Below, piece after piece: positions 1-7,463 of a DNA stretch of 7,463 nt. This DNA comes from a virus (lineage: Duplodnaviria; Heunggongvirae; Uroviricota; Caudoviricetes). The stretch is from IMG/VR virus record IMGVR_UViG_2526164628_000018. One strand, given 5' to 3'. How positions within the stretch are numbered: the stretch's first letter is position 1; each line of letters starts with the position of its first letter. The translations under genes were made by a program, and so were the position numbers. Below the pieces are notes generated by a model, which had not been told where the DNA came from, did not search any database, and worked only from the letters and a program-made list of their open reading frames with translations.

Positions 1-981
1 TTATAACGTCACTCCGCCTTTTAGTGGATTCAGAGCGACGGCGTTCTGCAGGTAGTCAGGCGCAAGGTGCGCATAGGTCATTGTCTGCTGAATGCTCGCA
101 TGCCCCAGAATCTGTTGCAGTGCAATTATGTTGCCCCCATTCATCATGAAATGGCTTGCGAATGTATGCCGCAGAATGTGGGTTGCCTGATTGGGAGGTA
201 TATCAGGTTTCACTCTGCGTAAAATCCCGCAAAACTTCTCATAATCTACCTTGAACAATTTGGCGCTGGCCTCCTCTTTAACTTTTTTCTCCAGTTCCTC
301 AGAAATCGGCACTGTTCGCTTTTTACCGTTTTTGGTTTTCAGGAAGGTAACCCTGCAACTTGTAATCTGTGCTGGTTTTAGTGTGGCAACTTCCGTCCAC
401 CTTCCTCCAGTGCTCAGACATAAAAGCGCGACAAGTAAGTCATCACCAGTCAAAACATTTAGCAGTTTTTCGATTTCTGCTTTTTCCAGGAACGTCATTT
501 CAGGGTTAGCCTCCGTCAGTGGCGGCAGTCCGTGAATTGGGTGTTGCCCGGAAAATTCATCCAATTGAATTAATTTTGTGAACATGCCGGATAATCGGTA
601 CATGTCGCGGTTTATCGTTGCAGCACTGATGCCATCACGTAGTCGCATGGAGCGATAATCCATCAAAGCCCTTTTGTTCATCCGACTCACTGGTATATCA
701 CCTATGCCGCTGATGGTTTTGAGCAGATGATTAAACTCTTTTGTCCCATGCTCGTGGTTTTGCCCGTGGTATTTCCACCAGATGTCGAGCAATTCTGTCA
801 AAGTTCGGCGGTCTGCTCGCTGGCCTCCCCATTCTTTCTGACTGGCATTGGCGATTGTGTATCGCTCAAATGCTAGTGCTTCAGCTTTTCTTTCAAATTT
901 CCTGCGGATGCGTTTTCCGTTGCGACCGCGAGGTCTAATGTCCACTTCATAGCGACCATCATCGAGCTTCTTAATTGCCAT
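1..981 (-). CDS. int: P2-family tyrosine recombinase / phage integrase (326 aa from the MAIKKLDDG start; an upstream in-frame ATG at 1011 would give 336 aa)
   Basis: Full-length minus-strand ORF with stop at 1-3. The N-terminus MAIKKLDDGRYEVDIRPRGRNGKRIRRKF matches my recollection of P2-type integrases. The C-terminus carries the tyrosine recombinase catalytic signature (arginine in GGRWTEV, HILRHTF box, and nucleophile tyrosine in QTMTYAHL). A GGAGGG Shine-Dalgarno sits about 8 nt upstream of the ATG at 979-981, whereas the ATG at 1011 has none. Confidence 0.9.
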   Translation of the reverse strand: MAIKKLDDGRYEVDIRPRGRNGKRIRRKFERKAEALAFERYTIANASQKEWGGQRADRRTLTELLDIWWKYHGQNHEHGTKEFNHLLKTISGIGDIPVSRMNKRALMDYRSMRLRDGISAATINRDMYRLSGMFTKLIQLDEFSGQHPIHGLPPLTEANPEMTFLEKAEIEKLLNVLTGDDLLVALLCLSTGGRWTEVATLKPAQITSCRVTFLKTKNGKKRTVPISEELEKKVKEEASAKLFKVDYEKFCGILRRVKPDIPPNQATHILRHTFASHFMMNGGNIIALQQILGHASIQQTMTYAHLAPDYLQNAVALNPLKGGVTL

Positions 982-1050
982 AAGAAAGCCCTCCGGCGCT
1001 GTATTCACCATCTTGGTGGCAAATGGTGAAAATGTAATTTTTATATAGAG

Positions 1051-1344
1051 TTAGCCAATCCTTTTCGCGGAGTGGTTGGATTCTGTTGACTCTGGCCCAC
1101 TGTGCGCGAGAGCCGGTGCGATTTGTCCCGCTTCCGGCGCTGTTTTATCTGTCATGAGCCATAGTGTGTATTTTTGGAACTGAGGTGCATTGGTGACCTG
1201 CAACACAACTTGGATGCCAGGGTCTTGATGGCCTCCTTCGTAATTCTTTAGCGTTCCTAACGCTATGCCGCTGATTTCACTGAATTTTGCTTGAGTTAGC
1301 CCTTCCGATTGTCTTATTGCTCTTAATTTCTGTGCGATATTCAT
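1051..1344 (-). CDS. C: P2-type immunity repressor C (97 aa, helix-turn-helix)
   Basis: Small ORF immediately upstream of int on the same strand, as in the P2 C-int operon. It has an N-terminal HTH-like segment (LTQAKFSEISGIALGTLKNYE) and a C-terminal QFQKYTLWLMTDKTAPEAGQIAPALAH block that I recall as conserved in P2 C-like repressors. Its start abuts the divergent promoter region. Confidence 0.8.
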   Translation of the reverse strand: MNIAQKLRAIRQSEGLTQAKFSEISGIALGTLKNYEGGHQDPGIQVVLQVTNAPQFQKYTLWLMTDKTAPEAGQIAPALAHSGPESTESNHSAKRIG

Positions 1345-1374
1345 TTGACATAGTCCTGACTTAATGACTATATT
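1345..1374 (+). promoter_or_regulatory. Candidate early promoter Pe (sigma70-like) with overlapping candidate repressor operator repeats
   Basis: Consensus -35 TTGACA at 1345-1350, an 18-bp spacer, and -10 TATATT at 1369-1374, oriented toward cox. Tandem direct repeats TGACTTAA (1357-1364) and TGACTATA (1365-1372) overlap the spacer and -10. P2-type C repressors are known to bind direct repeats flanking the Pe -10. I could not place the leftward Pc promoter confidently. Confidence 0.45.
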
Positions 1375-1480
1375 CCCCGAAAAAGGTCATTAATCCAGAA
1401 CCTTTTCGGGCGTGAGTCCAGCGCCGCTTAAACGGTTCCAAGCGGTTTTTAAGGGGCTGGATCCTATGAGGGTAACATAG

Positions 1481-1753
1481 ATGGAAGTTAATGATTATGT
1501 GATTAAGTACCCGCTTGATGCGGTACATGCGGAAAAGTTTGCAGATTTATTGGGTAAACCAAAAACCGCAGTTACAGAAATGATAAAGGCTAACAAGCTA
1601 CCGGTTATCGAGCTTCGAGATCCAAATAAGCCGAAGGCCCGCGCCGGTGAGAAATGGGTTTTCATTCCAGAGTTTAATCGCGCTGTACGTGAGGCGTTTT
1701 ATAACCGACCGGTTGAACAGCGTGATGCATGGCTTTTGTGGATGGGGTTGTGA
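1481..1753 (+). CDS. cox: Cox-like excisionase / transcriptional regulator (90 aa)
   Basis: First gene of the rightward operon, divergent from C, with the length and position of P2 Cox. GAGGG Shine-Dalgarno at 1469-1473, 7 nt before the ATG. Basic, DNA-binding-like composition. Confidence 0.75.
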   Translation: MEVNDYVIKYPLDAVHAEKFADLLGKPKTAVTEMIKANKLPVIELRDPNKPKARAGEKWVFIPEFNRAVREAFYNRPVEQRDAWLLWMGL

Positions 1754-1755
1754 TT

Positions 1756-1926
1756 ATGAATGAGCCGCGTTGTATTGCGCAGTTACTGCGTAACGAAAGC
1801 CCCAGGGCGATTGACTTCACCATCACCCACGGTAAGGGGCGTAAGGGAATCATTATCCGCACCAAAAAACAGAGTCCGTTAAAAAAGGCTCTGAACTTTC
1901 TGAAAAGCCGGAGGGTCTGGAAATGA
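1756..1926 (+). CDS. Small basic hypothetical protein (56 aa), in the position of the P2 small ORF between cox and B
   Basis: ATG at 1756 lies 2 nt after the cox stop (1751-1753). Its stop overlaps the B start as ATGA (1923-1926). The Shine-Dalgarno is weak (GGGG). The upstream in-frame ATG at 1729 has no Shine-Dalgarno and would overlap cox. Confidence 0.5.
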   Translation: MNEPRCIAQLLRNESPRAIDFTITHGKGRKGIIIRTKKQSPLKKALNFLKSRRVWK

Positions 1927-2423
1927 CAGTGATGACACTTAATCTCGTCGAAAAACAGCCAGCAGCTATGCGCCGGATAATTGGTAAGCATCTGGCCGTC
2001 CCTCGCTGGCAGGAGACATGTGATTATTATAATCAGATGATGGAACGTGAACGGCTAACGGTTTGCTTCCATGCGCAGTTAAAACAACGTCACGCAACGA
2101 TGCGTTTCGAAGAAATGAACGATGTCGAACGTGAACGGCTGGTTTGTGCAATTGATGAATTGCGTGGGGCATTCTCAAAACGCCGTCAGGTCGGTGCAAG
2201 TGAGTATGCATATATTAGTTTTTTAACAGTCAGTCAGCGGCGTACTTTATTTATGCATGCCAGATTGACAGAAAAAGAATTCAACCAGCCATACTGGCTA
2301 ATTAATGAAAAATCATGTTACTGGCGTGATGCTTTATTCCGTGCATTACGTGAATTATTCAGTCTGTTTGAGTATGCACCGACAATTCTGACATCGGTAA
2401 AACCAGAGCAATATCTGCATTAA
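1923..2423 (+). CDS. B: P2 gene B-like replication protein (166 aa; helicase-loader-type accessory factor)
   Basis: A 166-aa ORF matching the length and position of P2 B. GGAGG at 1910-1914 sits 8 nt upstream, and the start overlaps the preceding stop (ATGA). The assignment rests on synteny and recalled similarity, not on a catalytic motif. Confidence 0.8.
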   Translation: MTVMTLNLVEKQPAAMRRIIGKHLAVPRWQETCDYYNQMMERERLTVCFHAQLKQRHATMRFEEMNDVERERLVCAIDELRGAFSKRRQVGASEYAYISFLTVSQRRTLFMHARLTEKEFNQPYWLINEKSCYWRDALFRALRELFSLFEYAPTILTSVKPEQYLH

Positions 2424-2486
2424 GCAATTAACCAGAGTTTTTAACGCACTTAATTGTGCGGGGCTTCTTTTTGCCTGGAGAAAGTC

Positions 2487-2711
2487 ATGCATACAGTTTC
2501 TGAAAATCAGTGCGGTAAATACGCATTACTGCTGCAACAGGCCAGAACCGAAGCACAGGCCGACGCTGCGACGCGCTTTTCTTCTCATCTTGACGCCATG
2601 ATTCGCCACATCACAAAGGCGGAGTTATCCCGCGTGGAGATAGTTGAGCTGCTCAGTCAGGAGTCGGAAAAATTTCACAATATCGGATTGTCTCGCGGGG
2701 AGGTGCTTTGA
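2487..2711 (+). CDS. Hypothetical early-operon protein (74 aa; P2 orf80-like position)
   Basis: ATG at 2487 is preceded by GGAG at 2477-2480 (6-nt spacing). The ORF-track start at 2454 has no Shine-Dalgarno. The stop TGA at 2709-2711 overlaps the next start. Confidence 0.6.
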
Positions 2712-3013
2712 TGTCCTGTTCTCGTTCGGTTGTATTACTGAATAACGCCTTAAAAATCGCCGTTATGAAAAATGGTGATTTGTCTCTTATTCAACTTGGT
2801 ATTGATAAAGAGAAGCGCGAAATAACTGAATCTGTTATCACGATTTATCAGAGTGAATTAAACCTCCTGTCTGATGTGGTCAATTTACTTGTTAAACGCG
2901 CTGTATTCCACAAGCAAATTTCCTCAGTGGATGAACTGACAAAATTAACGACAGAACTCGCCAGTTATTGCGCTGATGAATTTAAGAAGCTGAACGACAA
3001 AAGGAGCTGGTAA
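2711..3013 (+). CDS. Hypothetical early-operon protein (100 aa; P2 orf81-like position)
   Basis: ATG at 2711 overlaps the upstream stop (TGATG). GGAGG at 2699-2703 sits 7 nt upstream. The ORF-track start at 2708 is a TTG. Confidence 0.6.
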   Translation: MSCSRSVVLLNNALKIAVMKNGDLSLIQLGIDKEKREITESVITIYQSELNLLSDVVNLLVKRAVFHKQISSVDELTKLTTELASYCADEFKKLNDKRSW

Positions 3014-3237
3014 TGCCGGACAACGTGGATTTTATTCAGGAACAACAGGCTGAATTACTGGAGCGCCAGATTAACGCGGCAAGGGTAAAACATTGCGGTG
3101 TTTCTGCGCTGGTTTGCGAAGAGTGTGACGCGCCAATACCTGCTGCCCGTCGTGCGGCTTATCCGTCAGCCACGCGTTGTGTTTCCTGTCAGTCAGTCTT
3201 TGAAGCAAAAAACAAACATTACCGGAGAACGGCATGA
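3013..3237 (+). CDS. TraR/DksA-family C4-type zinc-finger protein (74 aa; P2 orf82-like)
   Basis: Paired CxxC motifs (CEEC and CVSC) with the spacing typical of phage TraR/DksA-like zinc fingers. AAGGAG at 3001-3006 sits 6 nt upstream. The start overlaps the upstream stop (TAATG). Confidence 0.75.
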   Translation: MPDNVDFIQEQQAELLERQINAARVKHCGVSALVCEECDAPIPAARRAAYPSATRCVSCQSVFEAKNKHYRRTA

Positions 3238-3509
3238 GTATTCGTATTGAAATTGGCGAACGTTATGTCGTTACCAGTGACAGCTTTCAGTTTATTCTCC
3301 ACGAGAAAAAGAGAGCGGAAAGCGGTAAAAACGCCGGTCAGGAATGGCTGGCGGTGGTTGGTTATTACCCGAAATTAGGCCAGCTCGTTTCCGGCCTGAT
3401 GCATCACGATATTCTGACCGGAAGCGCAAAATCTTTTGCTGATTTAAACGCGCAGGTTGAGCAACTCAGCAAGCGTTGTTCAGAGGCTTTTGGCTCATAT
3501 GGCCGTTAA
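3234..3509 (+). CDS. Hypothetical early-operon protein (91 aa; P2 orf83-like position)
   Basis: ATG at 3234 overlaps the upstream stop (ATGA). GGAG at 3224-3227 sits 6 nt upstream. Its 3' end overlaps the A start by 11 nt. Confidence 0.6.
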   Translation: MSIRIEIGERYVVTSDSFQFILHEKKRAESGKNAGQEWLAVVGYYPKLGQLVSGLMHHDILTGSAKSFADLNAQVEQLSKRCSEAFGSYGR

Positions 3510-5775
3510 AGCCTCCGGGCGTTTTGTCCCTCCGTCAGCATTTACCGCAGGCACCGGTAAGGCGTTTACCGGTGCTTATGCATGGAACGCGCCACGCGAG
3601 GCTGTCGGGCGCGAAAGACCTCTTACACGTGACGAGATGCGTCAGGTGCAAGGTGTTTTATCCACGATTAACCGCCTGCCTTACTTTTTGCGCTCGCTGT
3701 TTACTTCACGCTATGACTACATCCGGCGCAATAAAAGCCCGGTGCACGGGTTTTATTTCCTCACATCCACTTTTCAGCGTCGTTTATGGCCGCGCATTGA
3801 GCGTGTGAATCAGCGCCATGAAATGAACACCGACGCGTCGTTGCTGTTTCTGGCAGAGCGTGACCACTATGCGCGCCTGCCGGGAATGAATGACAAGGAG
3901 CTGAAAAAGTTTGCCGCCCGTATCTCATCGCAGCTTTTCATGATGTATGAGGAACTCTGCGATGCATGGGTTGATGCGCATGGTGAAAAAGAATCGCTGT
4001 TTACGGATGAGGCGCAGGCTCACCTGTATGGTCATGTTGCTGGCGCTGCACGTGCTTTCAATATTTCCCCGCTCTACTGGAAAAAATACCGTAAAGGACA
4101 GATGACCACGAGGCAGGCATATTCTGCCATTGCCCGTCTGTTTAACGATGAGTGGTGGACTCATCAGCTTAAAGGCCAGCGTATGCGCTGGCATGAAGCG
4201 TTACTGATAGCTGTCGGGGAGGTCAATAAAGACCGTTCTCCTTATGCCAGTAAACACGCCATTCGTGATGTGCGTGCGCGCCGCCAGGCAAATCTGGAAT
4301 TTCTTAAATCGTGTGACCTTGAAAACAGGGAAACCGGCGAGCGCATCGACCTTATCAGTAAGGTGATGGGCAGTATTTCTAATCCTGAAATTCGCCGGAT
4401 GGAGCTGATGAACACCATTGCCGGTATTGAGCGTTACGCCGCCGCAGAGGGCGATGTGGGGATGTTTATCACGCTGACCGCACCGTCAAAGTATCACCCG
4501 ACACGTCAGGTCGGAAAAGGCGAAAGTAAAACCGTGCAGCTTAATCACGGCTGGAACGATGAGGCATTTAATCCAAAGGATGCGCAGCGTTATCTCTGCC
4601 GTATCTGGAGCCTGATGCGCACGGCATTCAAGGATAATGATTTACAGGTTTACGGTTTGCGAGTCGTCGAGCCACACCACGACGGAACGCCGCACTGGCA
4701 TATGATGCTTTTTTGTAATCCACGCCAGCGTAACCAGATTATTGAAATCATGCGTCGCTACGCGCTCAAAGAGGATGGCGACGAAAGAGGAGCTGCGCGA
4801 AACCGTTTTCAGGCAAAACACCTTAACCGGGGCGGTGCTGCGGGATATATCGCGAAATACATTTCAAAAAACATCGACGGCTATGCACTGGATGGTCAGC
4901 TCGATAACGATACCGGCAGGCCGCTGAAAGACACTGCCGCGGCTGTTACCGCATGGGCGTCAACGTGGCGCATTCCGCAATTTAAAACGGTTGGCCTGCC
5001 GACAATGGGGGCTTACCGTGAACTACGCAAATTGCCTCGCGGCGTCAGCATTGCTGATGAGTTTGACGAGCGCGTCGAGGCTGCACGCGCCGCCGCAGAC
5101 AGTGGTGATTTTGCGTTGTATATCAGCGCGCAGGGTGGGGCAAATGTCCCGCGCGATTGTCAGACTGTCAGGGTCGCCCGTAGCCCGTCGGATGACGTTA
5201 ACGAGTACGAGGAAGAAGTCGAGAGAGTGGTCGGCATTTACGCGCCGCATCTCGGCGCGCGTCATATTCATATCACCAGAACGACGGACTGGCGCATTGT
5301 GCCGAAAGTTCCGGTCGTTGAGCCTTTGACTTTAAAAAGCGGCATCGCCGCGCCTCGGAGTCCTGTCAATAACTGTGGAAAGCTCACCGGTGGTGATACT
5401 TCGTTACCGGCTCCCACACCTTCTGAGCACGCCGCAGCAGTGCTTAATCTGGTTGATGACGGTGTTATCGAATGGAATGACCCGGAGGTCGTGAGGGCGC
5501 TCAAAAGCGCATTAAAACACGGCCTGAGAAGACCAAACCGTCAGCAAAGAAACGGAAACCCGTTAAAACCACATGAAATTGCACCATCGGCCAGACTGAG
5601 CCGGTCGGAGCGATTGCAAATCACCCGTATCCGCGTTGACCTTGCTCAGAATGGAATCTTGCCCCAGCGATGGGAGCTTGAGGCGCTGGCGCGTGGGGCA
5701 ACCGTAAATTATGACGGGAAAAAATTCACGTATCCGGTTGCTGATGAGTGGTCGGTTTTTTCAATTAAACAATAA
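3499..5775 (+). CDS. A: P2 gpA-type rolling-circle replication initiation endonuclease (758 aa)
   Basis: First ATG in frame (the track start at 3457 is a TTG). Carries the rolling-circle metal-binding motif in VEPHHDGTPHWHMMLF and the paired active-site tyrosines in GYIAKYISKNIDGY (phiX174 A / P2 A superfamily). Length is close to P2 A and it sits at the end of the early operon. Confidence 0.9.
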   Translation: MAVKASGRFVPPSAFTAGTGKAFTGAYAWNAPREAVGRERPLTRDEMRQVQGVLSTINRLPYFLRSLFTSRYDYIRRNKSPVHGFYFLTSTFQRRLWPRIERVNQRHEMNTDASLLFLAERDHYARLPGMNDKELKKFAARISSQLFMMYEELCDAWVDAHGEKESLFTDEAQAHLYGHVAGAARAFNISPLYWKKYRKGQMTTRQAYSAIARLFNDEWWTHQLKGQRMRWHEALLIAVGEVNKDRSPYASKHAIRDVRARRQANLEFLKSCDLENRETGERIDLISKVMGSISNPEIRRMELMNTIAGIERYAAAEGDVGMFITLTAPSKYHPTRQVGKGESKTVQLNHGWNDEAFNPKDAQRYLCRIWSLMRTAFKDNDLQVYGLRVVEPHHDGTPHWHMMLFCNPRQRNQIIEIMRRYALKEDGDERGAARNRFQAKHLNRGGAAGYIAKYISKNIDGYALDGQLDNDTGRPLKDTAAAVTAWASTWRIPQFKTVGLPTMGAYRELRKLPRGVSIADEFDERVEAARAAADSGDFALYISAQGGANVPRDCQTVRVARSPSDDVNEYEEEVERVVGIYAPHLGARHIHITRTTDWRIVPKVPVVEPLTLKSGIAAPRSPVNNCGKLTGGDTSLPAPTPSEHAAAVLNLVDDGVIEWNDPEVVRALKSALKHGLRRPNRQQRNGNPLKPHEIAPSARLSRSERLQITRIRVDLAQNGILPQRWELEALARGATVNYDGKKFTYPVADEWSVFSIKQ
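5350..5369 (+). other. Candidate origin of replication / gpA nick site inside gene A
   Basis: In P2 and 186 the origin is known to lie inside the 3' part of gene A. The sequence GCGCCTCGGAGTCCTGTCAA matches my unverified recollection of the P2 ori cleavage region. Confidence 0.3.
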
Positions 5776-5827
5776 TGGCTACTGCCGCAGCGTTGTGGGA
5801 ATGCTATAGTGTTTGTAGAATTATCCC

Positions 5828-5858
5828 ATGAAAAACAACTAATTAATCTGTTTTTCAT
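5828..5858. repeat. Perfect 10-bp inverted repeat (ATGAAAAACA ... TGTTTTTCAT) with an 11-bp spacer containing the palindrome TAATTA
   Basis: Read directly from the sequence. Located in the AT-rich gap between A and the methyltransferase gene. The stem is almost entirely A/T, so it looks more like a protein-binding site than an intrinsic terminator. Confidence 0.5.
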
Positions 5859-5922
5859 ATTGAACTAATTTTTTATGGCCACAGTTGTTAAAAAGTGAGA
5901 ACATAATCTTGTTCAAAACCTG

Positions 5923-5951
5923 CTTCTATATACGGAGGCTTTCGCTATAAT
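5923..5951 (+). promoter_or_regulatory. Candidate promoter for the methyltransferase gene
   Basis: Perfect -10 TATAAT at 5946-5951 with AT-rich upstream DNA. The -35 at 5923-5928 (CTTCTA) is poor. The predicted start would give a short leader carrying the strong AGGAGG Shine-Dalgarno at 5966-5971. Confidence 0.3.
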
Positions 5952-5976
5952 ACGCGGTCGGTTTTAGGAGGGGATA

Positions 5977-6921
5977 ATGCCAACAGTAGTTTCACTTTTT
6001 TCTGGATGCGGTGGTTCCGATGCGGGGGTTCTGAGAGCTGGCTTTGATGTGCTTATGGCCAACGATATCTTGCCGTATGCGCGCGATGTTTATATTGCCA
6101 ATCATCCAGAAACTGATTACATTTTAGGCAATATTGCTGATGTAACTACTTTTCCTAAATCTGATTTGCTAGTAGGTTGTTATCCATGTCAGGGATTCAG
6201 CCAGGGTGGTGCGCGTAAGGCCGATCGAAAAATTAATACTCTTTATTTAGAGTTTGCTAGAGCTTTAAACAATATAAAGCCTAAAGCTTTTATAGTAGAA
6301 AACGTGTCTGGTATGGTTAGAAAAAACTTCGAGCATTTGTTATCTGACCAGATCAGGGTTTTTACTGAAGCAGGTTATGCTGTTTCAGCAAAAGTTTTGA
6401 ATGCGGCTGAATATGGAGTAGCGCAGGAAAGAAAAAGAATATTTATCGTAGGAATCCGTAATGATTTCAAAGTTAAGTACGAGTTCCCTCAGCCAACTCA
6501 TGGGCCGGCGACTGGCGTCAACTATGTTACTATTAAAGATGCTATAGGGCATTTACCTGAATGGCCAGAAGGTGAATTTTATGATATGGGGTTCCATTGG
6601 TATTATATGTCTCGCAATCGTCGCCAAGATTGGGATCAAATTTCAAAGACAATAGTTGCTAATGCAAGGCATATGCCGTTGCATCCTATCAGTCCTTCGA
6701 TGGAGAAAGTAAGAACTGATGAATGGAGGTTTGTTGAGGATCGGAGAGCTCGCAGATTCAGTTTTCGAGAGGCAGCACTATTACAAGGGTTTGAGGATCT
6801 AGTGTTTCCCGAAACAAATGCTGCAAGTCTTGGCATGAAATACACGGTGGTTGGTAATGCAGTGCCTCCGCCGCTTTTTGAAGCTGTAACGAAGGCATTG
6901 CCAATAGAATTATGGGATTGA
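5977..6921 (+). CDS. DNA (cytosine-5)-methyltransferase (314 aa), complete, with all canonical motifs
   Basis: Motif I FSGCGG (SAM binding), motif IV GCYPCQGFS (catalytic Cys in PCQ), motif VI ENVSGM, motif VIII QERKRIFIVG, a variable region of about 130 aa, motif IX RRFSFREAALLQGF and motif X GNAVPPPL. AGGAGG Shine-Dalgarno 5 nt upstream. Spot counts of 100-bp samples give roughly 31-53% G+C (mean near 40%) against about 60% in one sample of A. Confidence 0.9.
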   Translation: MPTVVSLFSGCGGSDAGVLRAGFDVLMANDILPYARDVYIANHPETDYILGNIADVTTFPKSDLLVGCYPCQGFSQGGARKADRKINTLYLEFARALNNIKPKAFIVENVSGMVRKNFEHLLSDQIRVFTEAGYAVSAKVLNAAEYGVAQERKRIFIVGIRNDFKVKYEFPQPTHGPATGVNYVTIKDAIGHLPEWPEGEFYDMGFHWYYMSRNRRQDWDQISKTIVANARHMPLHPISPSMEKVRTDEWRFVEDRRARRFSFREAALLQGFEDLVFPETNAASLGMKYTVVGNAVPPPLFEAVTKALPIELWD

Positions 6922-6928
6922 TAAGCTA

Positions 6929-7163
6929 TTAAGGCTCTGGATTTAATGTATAAAGTTCTTCTTCAAATTCGCGAAACCAATCAGAGGTAGTTATCGCTTC
7001 CCATTGGTTTGCCTTATCAAGTAGATATATGATCCTCAACCTATCTAATAATAATACACCAGCGGTTGCATGTGTGCTTACCCATTCGCCATTTGCTTCC
7101 CGATAGAAAACAGGCGTGAACATTGTTGATGGATGCTGGAAAGCAATTTGGAAATAGGTGGTC
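6929..7163 (-). pseudogene. 3' fragment (77 codons) of an unknown gene convergent with the methyltransferase, apparently truncated by the IS3 insertion
   Basis: The minus-strand frame is open from the IS terminus at 7164 down to the TAA at 6929-6931. The first in-frame stop upstream lies inside the IS (7169-7171). The only ATG (7121-7123) has no Shine-Dalgarno. The stop is 7 bp from the methyltransferase stop. G+C is low, like the methyltransferase gene. Confidence 0.45.
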
Positions 7164-7463
7164 TGATCCTACCCACGTAATATGGACACAGGCCTAAGCG
7201 AGGTTCTGGTTTTCAAATTGTTCCGGACTGAGGCCGCCACACCAACTGTGCCGCCGCCACCGATTGTAATCACATTCGATATAATTAAACACCGTTGCCC
7301 GCATTATTTCCCGGCTGATAAAGTGTTCTCCATGGATACATTCCACTTTCAGCGAATGAAAGAAGCTTTCCACGCAGGCATTATCGTAGCAGCAACCTTT
7401 TGCGCTCATACTTCCACGCAGATTATGCCGCTTCAGTTGCGCCTGATAATCTGCTGAACAGTA
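7164..7463 (-). mobile_element. IS3-family insertion sequence, right-end portion (terminus at 7164, extends beyond the window)
   Basis: The terminal sequence TGATCCTACCCACGTAATATGGACACAGGCC begins with the 5'-TG of IS3-family inverted repeats. The 3' end of the transposase gene lies about 30 bp inside the terminus. Likely IS3 itself, from memory. Confidence 0.85.
7194..7463 (-). CDS. IS3-family transposase OrfB (DDE/rve integrase core), C-terminal part only; 5' end beyond the window
   Basis: The minus-strand frame is open to the window edge, so the track ORF starting MSAKGCC is only the part after an internal Met. It reads ...[48 protein letters not shown]...[20 protein letters not shown], the conserved C-terminal region of IS3 OrfB (InsF-like). 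Confidence 0.85.

What the first reader, a model, noticed from the sequence alone, without database searches (positions are those of the whole stretch)
5776..7163. Lower-G+C cargo downstream of gene A: methyltransferase plus a convergent partner gene as a candidate defence or restriction-modification module
In P2-like phages the interval after the replication gene A is the variable cargo locus (tin/old in P2 itself) and is a documented hotspot for anti-phage systems. Here the cargo is a complete C5-cytosine methyltransferase and a tightly convergent second gene, both with much lower G+C than the phage core. A methyltransferase paired with a convergent gene 7 bp away is the classic layout of a type II restriction-modification pair, but the partner shows no motif I can recognise, so it may be an uncharacterised effector.
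Basis: partly seen in the sequence, partly recalled or inferred. Interest (0 to 1): 0.7.

Follow-up and report, generated by a model that had tools for sequence, protein, structure and literature searches.

The report
IS3-broken ParB–nuclease–methyltransferase prophage defence cassette
The low-G+C cargo after gene A of this P2-like prophage is the remnant of a conserved but untested three-gene cassette: a cytosine methyltransferase, a restriction-endonuclease-like protein and a ParB-like NTP-binding protein, probably a restriction-modification-like anti-phage system, and here an IS3 insertion has cut the nuclease gene and left the methyltransferase intact.

Summary
An intact C5-cytosine methyltransferase lies at 5977-6921 (+). 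Seven bp downstream is a convergent ORF at 6929-7163 (-). The region is 41% G+C against 53% in gene A, and an IS3 end starts at 7164.

The "partner" is only the last 77 codons of a 329-codon gene. In 48 complete E. coli genomes and in Yersinia phage HQ103 the uninterrupted locus holds three genes between A and the portal gene Q:
- the methyltransferase;
- a convergent 329-aa protein;
- an overlapping upstream 373-aa ParB-like protein.

The ParB-like gene and the partner are always adjacent. An orthologous methyltransferase accompanies them in 13 of 17 informative loci, across different mobile elements and at least four diverged E. coli variants, including phage Wphi.

Rousset et al. (2022) catalogued this arrangement but did not test it. 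I read it as a new variant of the ParB-associated, restriction-modification-like defence theme, inactivated in this window. The function is inferred, not shown.

The parts
3457..5775 (+). Replication gene A of the P2-like prophage. It is the left border of the cargo hotspot. The start annotated in relatives corresponds to window 3499.
   Evidence: ORF; the equivalent gene is annotated 'replication endonuclease'. G+C 0.532.
5776..5976 (.). AT-rich spacer upstream of the methyltransferase gene, presumably holding its promoter. It includes a ribosome-binding site, AGGAGG, about 7 nt before the ATG.
   Evidence: G+C 0.373; sequence. The consensus scan found no sigma-70-like site in the spacer; its only match in 5700-7200 lies inside the methyltransferase ORF at 6095-6123. 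A promoter here is therefore inferred only.
5977..6921 (+). Intact C5-cytosine DNA methyltransferase, 314 aa, of the M.HaeIII-like subfamily.
   Evidence: PF00145 E 5e-65 and TIGR00675 above its cut-off. 100% identical at the DNA level to strain TW10590. The closest solved structure is M.HaeIII, aligned over the full length at E 2.8e-48.
6922..6928 (.). 7-bp gap between the two convergent stop codons.
6929..7163 (-). 3' remnant of the 329-codon partner gene (wHTH plus PD-(D/E)xK-like nuclease; phrog_3984). It holds residues 253-329 plus the stop. The conserved motif D208/D212...Q232-C233...W240/K243 is lost.
   Evidence: Collinear with L001 7230-7464. Family and model.
7164..7463 (-). Right end of an IS3 element: a terminal inverted repeat starting TGATCCTACCCAC, with the 3' end of the transposase orfB on the minus strand (ORF 7194-7409). 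It interrupts the partner gene after the target bases GTC.
   Evidence: 100% identity to annotated IS3 copies; junction compared with L001. The same junction is present in contig SRR096909_343.

Best explanation
The cargo is a decayed copy of a mobile three-gene cassette that most probably acts as a restriction-modification-like anti-phage system. There are three inferred steps.

1. The m5C methyltransferase marks the host and prophage DNA as self.
2. The 373-aa ParB/Srx-fold protein has intact box I (DxENPR) and box II (EGNRRL), a Spo0J-like helical DNA-binding region and a helical C-terminus. It would bind a nucleotide triphosphate and act as the DNA-loading or licensing subunit.
3. The 329-aa protein, translationally coupled to it, has an N-terminal winged helix and a C-terminal Mrr/MspJI-like PD-(D/E)xK domain with the motif GDxGxD...QC...WPxK. 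It would be the DNA-cleaving effector aimed at unmarked incoming DNA.

In this window IS3 has inserted at codon 252 of the nuclease gene, so restriction should be dead. The methyltransferase is intact and is expected to persist as an orphan enzyme.

Shown here: the gene content, the IS disruption, the predicted folds, the homology to PD-lambda-5_A, and the synteny and distribution.

Inferred only: nucleotide binding, nuclease activity, protection by methylation, and anti-phage activity.
For: Architecture
- Uninterrupted loci carry the methyltransferase, then the convergent 329-aa gene, then the 373-aa gene overlapping it by 11 bp, all between A and Q.
- All 48 complete E. coli genomes that carry this allele have all three genes at full length.
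- Phage HQ103 carries a cassette 98-99% identical.

Partner protein
- AlphaFold2 model: pLDDT 87.6, pTM 0.89.
- Foldseek independently ranks MspJI first (E 4.6e-3, probability 0.99).
- D208, D212, Q232, C233, W240 and K243 are conserved even in the variants at 23-28% identity and in a Bacteroidota homologue.

ParB-like protein
- Box I and box II are invariant.
- Residues 9-192 match PD-Lambda-5_A at E 1.6e-28. PD-lambda-5 is an experimentally validated, broad-range system that its authors describe as a compact prophage RM+Abi system (PMC9519451).

Linkage
- The ParB-like gene sits immediately upstream of the partner in every locus with upstream sequence.
- An orthologous methyltransferase (62-78% identity) is convergent downstream in 13 of 17 informative loci. 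These span Enterobacterales, Pseudomonas, Burkholderia, Methylophilaceae, Halomonas and others, inside different mobile elements.

Defence-like evolution and setting
- At least four diverged variants occupy the same P2 hotspot in E. coli.
- The pair evolves much faster than the methyltransferase.
- The family is almost absent from plasmids: 7 of 72,556 records.
- Loss of the nuclease gene with the methyltransferase retained is the decay pattern expected of a toxic-effector and protective-methylase pair (inference).
Against: - No experiment exists for this cassette. Rousset et al. list it in Table S5A but not among the systems they tested.
- The lysine of the canonical (D/E)xK triad is replaced by Gly or Ala. 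The proposed substitute, K243, lies in a low-confidence loop (pLDDT 61-66).
- The ParB-like/partner pair occurs without a linked C5 methyltransferase in 4 of 17 loci (L019, L024, L029, L034). A constitutively active restriction enzyme would not tolerate that unless an unlinked methylase protects the host.
- The methyltransferase is unusually conserved for an RM specificity determinant.
- Whether the rest of the partner gene and the ParB-like gene survive beyond the IS in the source genome is unknown.
Confidence: 0.55

Rival explanations
1. The methyltransferase is an independent phage-benefit gene: an orphan Dcm-like enzyme that protects phage DNA from host restriction or tunes expression. The ParB-like/partner pair would then be a separate two-gene module, a defence system or something else, that merely shares the hotspot.
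For: - The pair exists without the methyltransferase in 4 of 17 loci.
- The methyltransferase has its own convergent transcription unit.
- A 2026 survey of P2-like viruses interprets dcm genes as helping the phage evade host immunity (PMC13100340).
- The methyltransferase evolves at a very different rate from the pair.
Against: - The same orthologous methyltransferase family (62-78% identity) sits convergently within 0-35 bp of the partner gene in 12 of the 13 methyltransferase-positive loci. In the thirteenth, the Methylophilaceae locus, an HNH gene intervenes.
- These loci span beta- and gamma-proteobacteria and unrelated mobile elements, and include pair variants only 23-34% identical. Chance co-location does not explain that.
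- In E. coli complete genomes, all 48 carriers of this methyltransferase allele also carry the pair.
Confidence: 0.2
2. The ParB-like protein works on the modification side or as a regulator, as DndB and DpdB do in Dnd and Dpd systems. The 329-aa protein would be a catalytically inactive, restriction-endonuclease-fold DNA binder or sensor. The cassette would then be an epigenetic or abortive-infection module rather than a DNA-cleaving restriction system.
For: - The canonical lysine of the nuclease triad is missing.
- ParB-like ATPases assist DNA modification in Dpd and regulate Dnd (PMC12839542).
- The authors of PD-lambda-5 suggest an Abi component.
Against: - D208, D212, Q232 and K243 are invariant over very large distances, which is typical of an active site.
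- The ParB-like gene is translationally coupled to the partner, not to the methyltransferase.
- No HEPN or other toxin domain was detected.
Confidence: 0.15
3. The ParB-like protein is part of a partition or maintenance system that lets the prophage persist as a plasmid. The cassette would then have nothing to do with defence.
For: - RefSeq names some homologues 'ParB/RepB/Spo0J family partition protein'.
- There are weak hits to TIGR00180 and to PHROG ParB-like partition families.
- Rousset et al. note putative partition systems in P2 hotspots.
Against: - No ParA gene or parS-like repeats lie next to it in any locus.
- The TIGR00180 score is 32.8 against a cut-off of 58.45.
- The family occurs in only 7 of 72,556 plasmid records.
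- The partition cassette Rousset et al. refer to appears to be a different one, the DUF4760 + StbA + Plasmid_stab_B arrangement in their Table S5A; this identification is my inference.
- The constant neighbours are a nuclease-fold protein and a methyltransferase.
Confidence: 0.03

Closest known systems
PD-lambda-5 (Vassallo et al. 2022, Nat Microbiol; PADLOC/DefenseFinder 'PD-Lambda-5')
   Same: - It is prophage-borne and combines a ParB-like protein with a DNA methyltransferase.
- The first ~190 residues of the ParB-like protein are homologous (E 1.6e-28).
- Its authors interpret it as a compact RM-like system, and it had to be cloned in a host deleted for the region containing mrr.
   Different: - PD-lambda-5 has two genes. 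Its A protein is about 500 aa, with a weakly HEPN-like C-terminus and no separate nuclease gene.
- Its methyltransferase is a D12-class (Dam-like, N6-adenine) enzyme.
- Here the ParB-like protein is 373 aa with no detectable HEPN. A separate restriction-endonuclease-fold protein is present, and the methylase is a C5-cytosine enzyme.
GmrSD / SspE / BrxU-type enzymes (ParB-like DUF262 NTPase fused to a DUF1524 HNH nuclease)
   Same: A ParB/Srx-fold nucleotide-binding module is combined with a DNA nuclease module for restriction of foreign DNA. This is general knowledge, also summarised in PMC12839542.
   Different: - Those are single polypeptides with an HNH nuclease, and they are modification-dependent (type IV) or phosphorothioate-sensing, with no cognate methyltransferase.
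- Here the two modules are separate proteins, the nuclease has a PD-(D/E)xK fold, a methyltransferase is linked, and DUF262 is not matched.
Classical type II restriction-modification pair with convergent genes
   Same: - A complete C5 methyltransferase lies convergent, a few bp away, with a gene for a restriction-endonuclease-fold protein.
- The unit is mobile and low in G+C.
- The decay pattern is nuclease lost, methylase kept.
   Different: - An obligatory third, ParB-like NTP-binding subunit is present.
- The catalytic motif is atypical (Q-C-G/A with a displaced lysine).
- The methyltransferase is conserved while the nuclease diverges to 23% identity.
- The pair is sometimes found without the methylase.
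[quoted passage not shown] 2013; also in P2 hotspots, Rousset Table S5A)
   Same: The logic is the same three-part one, ParB-fold protein + DNA methylase + nuclease effector, and it occurs in the same P2 hotspot.
   Different: The effector there is a HEPN RNase-type domain and the ParB-like protein belongs to DUF262. Here the effector has a PD-(D/E)xK fold, and no HEPN family is matched.
Phage Wphi TO-region genes orf98, orf96 and mth (NC_005056)
   Same: The three-gene layout and the position between A and Q are the same. The proteins fall in the same PHROG families (phrog_3694, phrog_3984), and the methyltransferase is 76% identical.
   Different: The ParB-like protein is only 34% identical and the partner 25-28%. 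In the papers I could search, I found no functional study of these genes.

Membership tests
C5-cytosine DNA methyltransferase (PF00145 / TIGR00675) | Full-length match above the curated cut-offs, with catalytic motifs I, IV (PCQ), VI (ENV), VIII, IX and X. | tested here: met
   PF00145 scores 220.4 bits (cut-off 22) and TIGR00675 scores 191.7 bits (cut-off 100.65). The motifs are readable in the translation.
IS3 (IS3 family insertion sequence) | Terminal sequence and transposase identical to annotated IS3 copies. | tested here: met
   Bases 7164-7463 are 100% identical to 'IS3-like element IS3 family transposase' features. Only one end is in the window, so the 3-bp target duplication could not be checked.
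PD-lambda-5 | A protein homologous to PD-Lambda-5_A. | tested here: met
   25 PD-Lambda-5_A models are among the 25 best hits shown (26 families matched in all). The best is E 1.6e-28, but it covers only residues 9-192 against profile positions 7-196 of 440.
PD-lambda-5 | A HEPN-like C-terminal region in the ParB-like protein. | tested here: not met
PD-lambda-5 | The partner methyltransferase is a D12-class N6-adenine enzyme, in a two-gene system. | tested here: not met
   PD-lambda-5B matches PF02086 MethyltransfD12. Here the enzyme is a PF00145 C5 methyltransferase, and an extra 329-aa gene is present.
Type II restriction-modification system | A nuclease subunit with a recognised catalytic fold and an intact catalytic motif. 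| tested here: inconclusive
Type II restriction-modification system | Strict co-occurrence of the nuclease gene with a cognate methyltransferase. | tested here: inconclusive
   13 of 17 informative loci have the orthologous methyltransferase next to the pair and 4 do not. All 48 E. coli carriers of this allele have all three genes.
Type II restriction-modification system | Site-specific cleavage that is blocked by the cognate methylation. | not testable with these tools
   This needs biochemistry or plaque assays.
ParABS partition system | A ParB above the family cut-off, with a neighbouring ParA and a centromere, on a plasmid or chromosome origin region. | tested here: not met
   TIGR00180 scores 32.8 against a cut-off of 58.45. 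No ParA gene is present in any locus. Only 7 of 72,556 plasmid records hold a homologue.
GmrSD / SspE / BrxU (DUF262 + DUF1524) | A DUF262 ParB-like NTPase fused to an HNH (DUF1524) nuclease. | tested here: not met
   There is no DUF262 or DUF1524 Pfam hit. The nuclease-like protein is a separate polypeptide with a PD-(D/E)xK-like fold.
MspJI-like modification-dependent endonuclease | An N-terminal SRA-like domain that flips 5mC, plus a C-terminal D...QxK nuclease domain. | tested here: not met

The most novel reading that the evidence does not exclude
The intact cassette would be an undescribed class of restriction-modification-like immunity. A ParB/Srx-fold nucleotide switch, possibly a CTP- or ATP-gated DNA clamp like ParB or KorB, would load on or scan DNA and license a separate, atypical PD-(D/E)xK nuclease, while a conserved HaeIII-like m5C methyltransferase marks self. 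Its core pair is widespread: the partner family has 1,237 clusters at 50% identity. It also diversifies quickly within prophage hotspots.
Probability: 0.35. Interest if true: 0.7.

Novelty: new variant of a known kind. Interest (0 to 1): 0.5.

Why it matters
If the intact cassette is active, it adds a third architecture to the recurring pairing of a ParB-fold NTPase with a nuclease. The two known ones are the fused DUF262-HNH type IV enzymes and the ParB-HEPN plus Dam-like methylase of PD-lambda-5. It would also link the recently broadened biochemistry of the ParB-CTPase fold (PMC12704722) to self/non-self discrimination by cytosine methylation.

The family is common enough to matter for annotation. 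About 3.5-4% of complete E. coli genomes carry a methyltransferase of this family; the six such loci I opened, covering four diverged variants, all hold the full three-gene cassette. The partner family has 1,237 50%-identity clusters across Proteobacteria and beyond. The partner is still labelled 'hypothetical', and the ParB-like protein is sometimes mislabelled as a partition protein.

For this particular window the practical point is more modest. The system is dead and the strain probably carries an orphan m5C methyltransferase. That can affect its methylome and the transfer of its DNA into McrBC/Mrr-proficient hosts.

Tried and rejected
- Sequence-profile searches of the partner family found nothing useful: Pfam, PADLOC and NCBIfam and PDB sequences. 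Only structure comparison was informative.
- I tried to recover the DNA beyond the IS through the 64-aa ORF that a gene caller would call in the remnant. This found a contig from run SRR096909 that is 100% identical to window 5338-7191, including 28 nt of IS3, but it ends inside the IS. The fate of the rest of the cassette in the source strain stays unknown.
- No complete E. coli genome has IS3 at this position.
- Tetranucleotide palindrome counts, meant to guess the methyltransferase target, were uninformative: GGCC observed/expected is 0.65-1.0.
- The AlphaFold-database (afdb50) fold library was unavailable.
- Odegrip et al. 2006, on the variable TO region, is not held in the library.
- Literature searches found no functional study of this cassette or of Wphi orf96/orf98.
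- Partition function was considered and rejected; see the rival explanations.
Full report
**What is in the window**

The window is the left arm of a P2-like prophage:
- integrase (1-1011, -);
- C repressor (1051-1344, -);
- cox (1481-1753, +);
- the early operon;
- replication gene A, ending at 5775 (equivalent annotated loci, where the prophage lies next to cpxP).

Downstream of A the G+C content falls from 0.532 to 0.409. An intact 314-aa C5-cytosine methyltransferase occupies 5977-6921 (+). It matches PF00145 at E 5e-65 and TIGR00675 above its cut-off. Seven bp after its stop codon, a minus-strand reading frame ends at 6929.

Megablast against 5,426 complete E. coli genomes shows that homology to uninterrupted loci stops exactly at 7163. 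Bases 7164-7463 are 100% identical to annotated IS3 copies.

**What the partner really is**

In E. coli ATCC 8739 (locus L001), O103 RM8385 (L002) and 46 other complete genomes, the A-Q interval holds three genes:
- the methyltransferase;
- a convergent 329-aa 'hypothetical protein';
- a 373-aa 'ParB N-terminal domain-containing protein', whose gene overlaps the 329-aa gene by 11 bp.

The window keeps only residues 253-329 of the 329-aa protein. IS3 sits after the first base of codon 252. All 48 genomes that carry this methyltransferase allele have the whole cassette, and none has the IS. A short-read contig from run SRR096909 is 100% identical to window 5338-7191, including 28 nt of IS3. The insertion is thus real, but its far side could not be recovered.

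**The 329-aa protein**

It belongs to a well-conserved family of about 330 aa. There are 252 hits at 48-97% identity, and 1,237 clusters at 50% identity with E ≤ 1e-3 in an exhaustive profile search. It has no Pfam, PADLOC or NCBIfam match. In PHROGs it is phrog_3984, 'unknown function'.

An AlphaFold2 model built on a 36-sequence alignment is confident (pLDDT 87.6, pTM 0.89).
- Foldseek independently puts MspJI first (E 4.6e-3, probability 0.99).

The scores are modest, as is usual between restriction enzymes.

The conserved residues fit an Mrr/MspJI-like site: G-D208-x-G-x-D212 at the start of a strand, and Q232-C233 at the end of the next strand. The position of the triad lysine is Gly or Ala in every variant. 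An invariant W240-P-x-K243 follows ten residues later, in a lower-confidence loop. These residues persist in homologues only 23-28% identical and in a Bacteroidota plasmid copy, which argues for a functional site. Nuclease activity is nevertheless an inference.

**The 373-aa protein**

In PADLOC its residues 9-192 match the PD-Lambda-5_A models (best E 1.6e-28), and residues 43-339 match the candidate PDC-M38A.

PD-lambda-5 was selected experimentally from ECOR7. It affected plating or plaque size of all but one of the ten phages tested, had to be cloned in a host deleted for the region containing mrr, and was described as a compact prophage RM+Abi system (PMC9519451). Its supplementary HHpred table shows that protein A is about 500 aa, with ParBc at residues 6-89 and weak HEPN-like signals near the C-terminus. 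Protein B is a D12-class adenine methyltransferase.

The present cassette therefore shares only the ParB-like module with PD-lambda-5. Its ParB-like protein is shorter with no detectable HEPN, it has a separate nuclease-fold protein, and its methylase is of a different class.

**Linkage and distribution**

I examined the loci that encode partner homologues, excluding the duplicate records L002, L004, L006, L008, L010, L011 and L020 and the near-identical phage HQ103 copy (L017).
- Wherever upstream sequence exists, the ParB-like gene lies immediately upstream of the partner, usually overlapping it.
- An orthologous methyltransferase is convergent just downstream in 13 of the 17 loci with enough downstream sequence.
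- These 13 are E. coli, a Salmonella 186-like prophage, an Edwardsiella locus, an integrase-linked island in Pseudomonas nitroreducens, a Burkholderia vietnamiensis prophage, Methylophilaceae (with an extra HNH gene in between), Methylobacter, Methyloversatilis, Nitrosomonadales, Gallionella, Halomonas, Melaminivora and phage Wphi.
- Four loci have the pair alone: one next to a type I hsdS gene, one next to an IS607-like element, one in Crenothrix and one on a Persicobacter plasmid.

In E. coli P2-like prophages at least four diverged versions occupy the same hotspot, one of them inverted.

Across variants the methyltransferase stays 62-78% identical over its whole length, including the target-recognition region. 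The ParB-like protein falls to 28-34% and the partner to 23-28%.

Homologues of the ParB-like protein occur in only 7 of 72,556 plasmid records, and no ParA gene is ever adjacent (loci above). This rules out a partition role.

**Prior knowledge**

Table S5A of Rousset et al. 2022 lists exactly this arrangement, 'DNA_methylase + hypothetical + ParBc', with the same RefSeq proteins as locus L002. Their table of tested systems contains no ParB or methylase entry. Anantharaman et al. 2013 noted operons combining ParB nucleases, DNA methylases and HEPN domains. I found no functional work on this cassette or on Wphi orf96/orf98. A 2026 survey of P2-like viruses treats their dcm genes as aids to immune evasion, which I keep as a rival reading.

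**Interpretation**

The best-supported reading (confidence about 0.55) is a restriction-modification-like defence cassette. The methyltransferase marks self, the ParB-fold protein is a nucleotide-gated DNA-binding or licensing subunit, and the 329-aa protein is the nuclease effector.

Points in favour:
- the hotspot location;
- mobility between unrelated elements;
- fast divergence of the pair;
- homology to a validated system;
- decay here by loss of the nuclease gene with the methylase preserved.

Points against:
- the atypical catalytic motif;
- the four methylase-less loci;
- the complete lack of experiments.

In this window the module cannot be functional as a restriction system. The methyltransferase, identical to that of strain TW10590, probably remains active as an orphan enzyme. 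Its closest solved relative is M.HaeIII (GGCC), aligned end to end. The actual target is unknown.

**Verdict**

The feature is a real, catalogued but uncharacterised three-gene relative of ParB-associated RM-like systems, present here as an IS3-inactivated remnant. I rate it a new variant of a known kind, of moderate interest. It is a good candidate for testing from an intact locus, but nothing in the window itself is functional beyond an orphan methylase.

Noticed in passing
L001 8209-8240 (C-terminus of the ParB-like protein); alignment A3: In the proteobacterial subfamily the ParB-like protein ends in an invariant acidic tail with a terminal phenylalanine...DDDF, DEDF, or SEGF in one variant. 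This is reminiscent of the C-terminal tips of SSB and T7 gp2.5. The tail is absent in Wphi orf98 and in the Persicobacter homologue.
   Followed up: partly
L013 (ERR10499635) and L015 (SRR30678170), at partner codons 240-241: Two independent short contigs carry the partner gene broken at the same invariant W240-P241 codons. TGGCCA becomes TGGTAA (a stop) in one and TACTTCA (a +1 frameshift) in the other. The site is about 30 nt from where IS3 sits in the window. These could be assembly errors or recurrent inactivation. The site contains GGCC.
   Followed up: partly
window 1-7163; also L001, L009, L016: GATC is strongly under-represented in the P2-like prophage DNA: 8 observed against 24.7 expected in the window, with ratios of 0.32-0.46 in the four prophage stretches tested.
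   Followed up: no
L007 7165-7929 and L008 3165-4097 (Methylophilaceae): An extra HNH_2 (PF13391) gene is inserted between the partner gene and the methyltransferase. It may be a second effector, or an unrelated insertion.
   Followed up: no
L016 (phage Wphi), L035 (O145:H28), L036 (DSM 103246): Across cassette variants the methyltransferase is 62-78% identical, while the ParB-like protein drops to 28-34% and the partner to 23-28%. This is an unusually asymmetric rate for components of one module.
   Followed up: yes
L019 2584-4332: In a Methylococcaceae MAG the ParB-like/partner pair has no adjacent C5 methyltransferase. It sits directly downstream of a type I restriction specificity (HsdS) gene.
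   Followed up: partly
window 5734-5755: A terminator-like hairpin followed by a T-run lies inside the last codons of gene A, just before the cargo.
   Followed up: no
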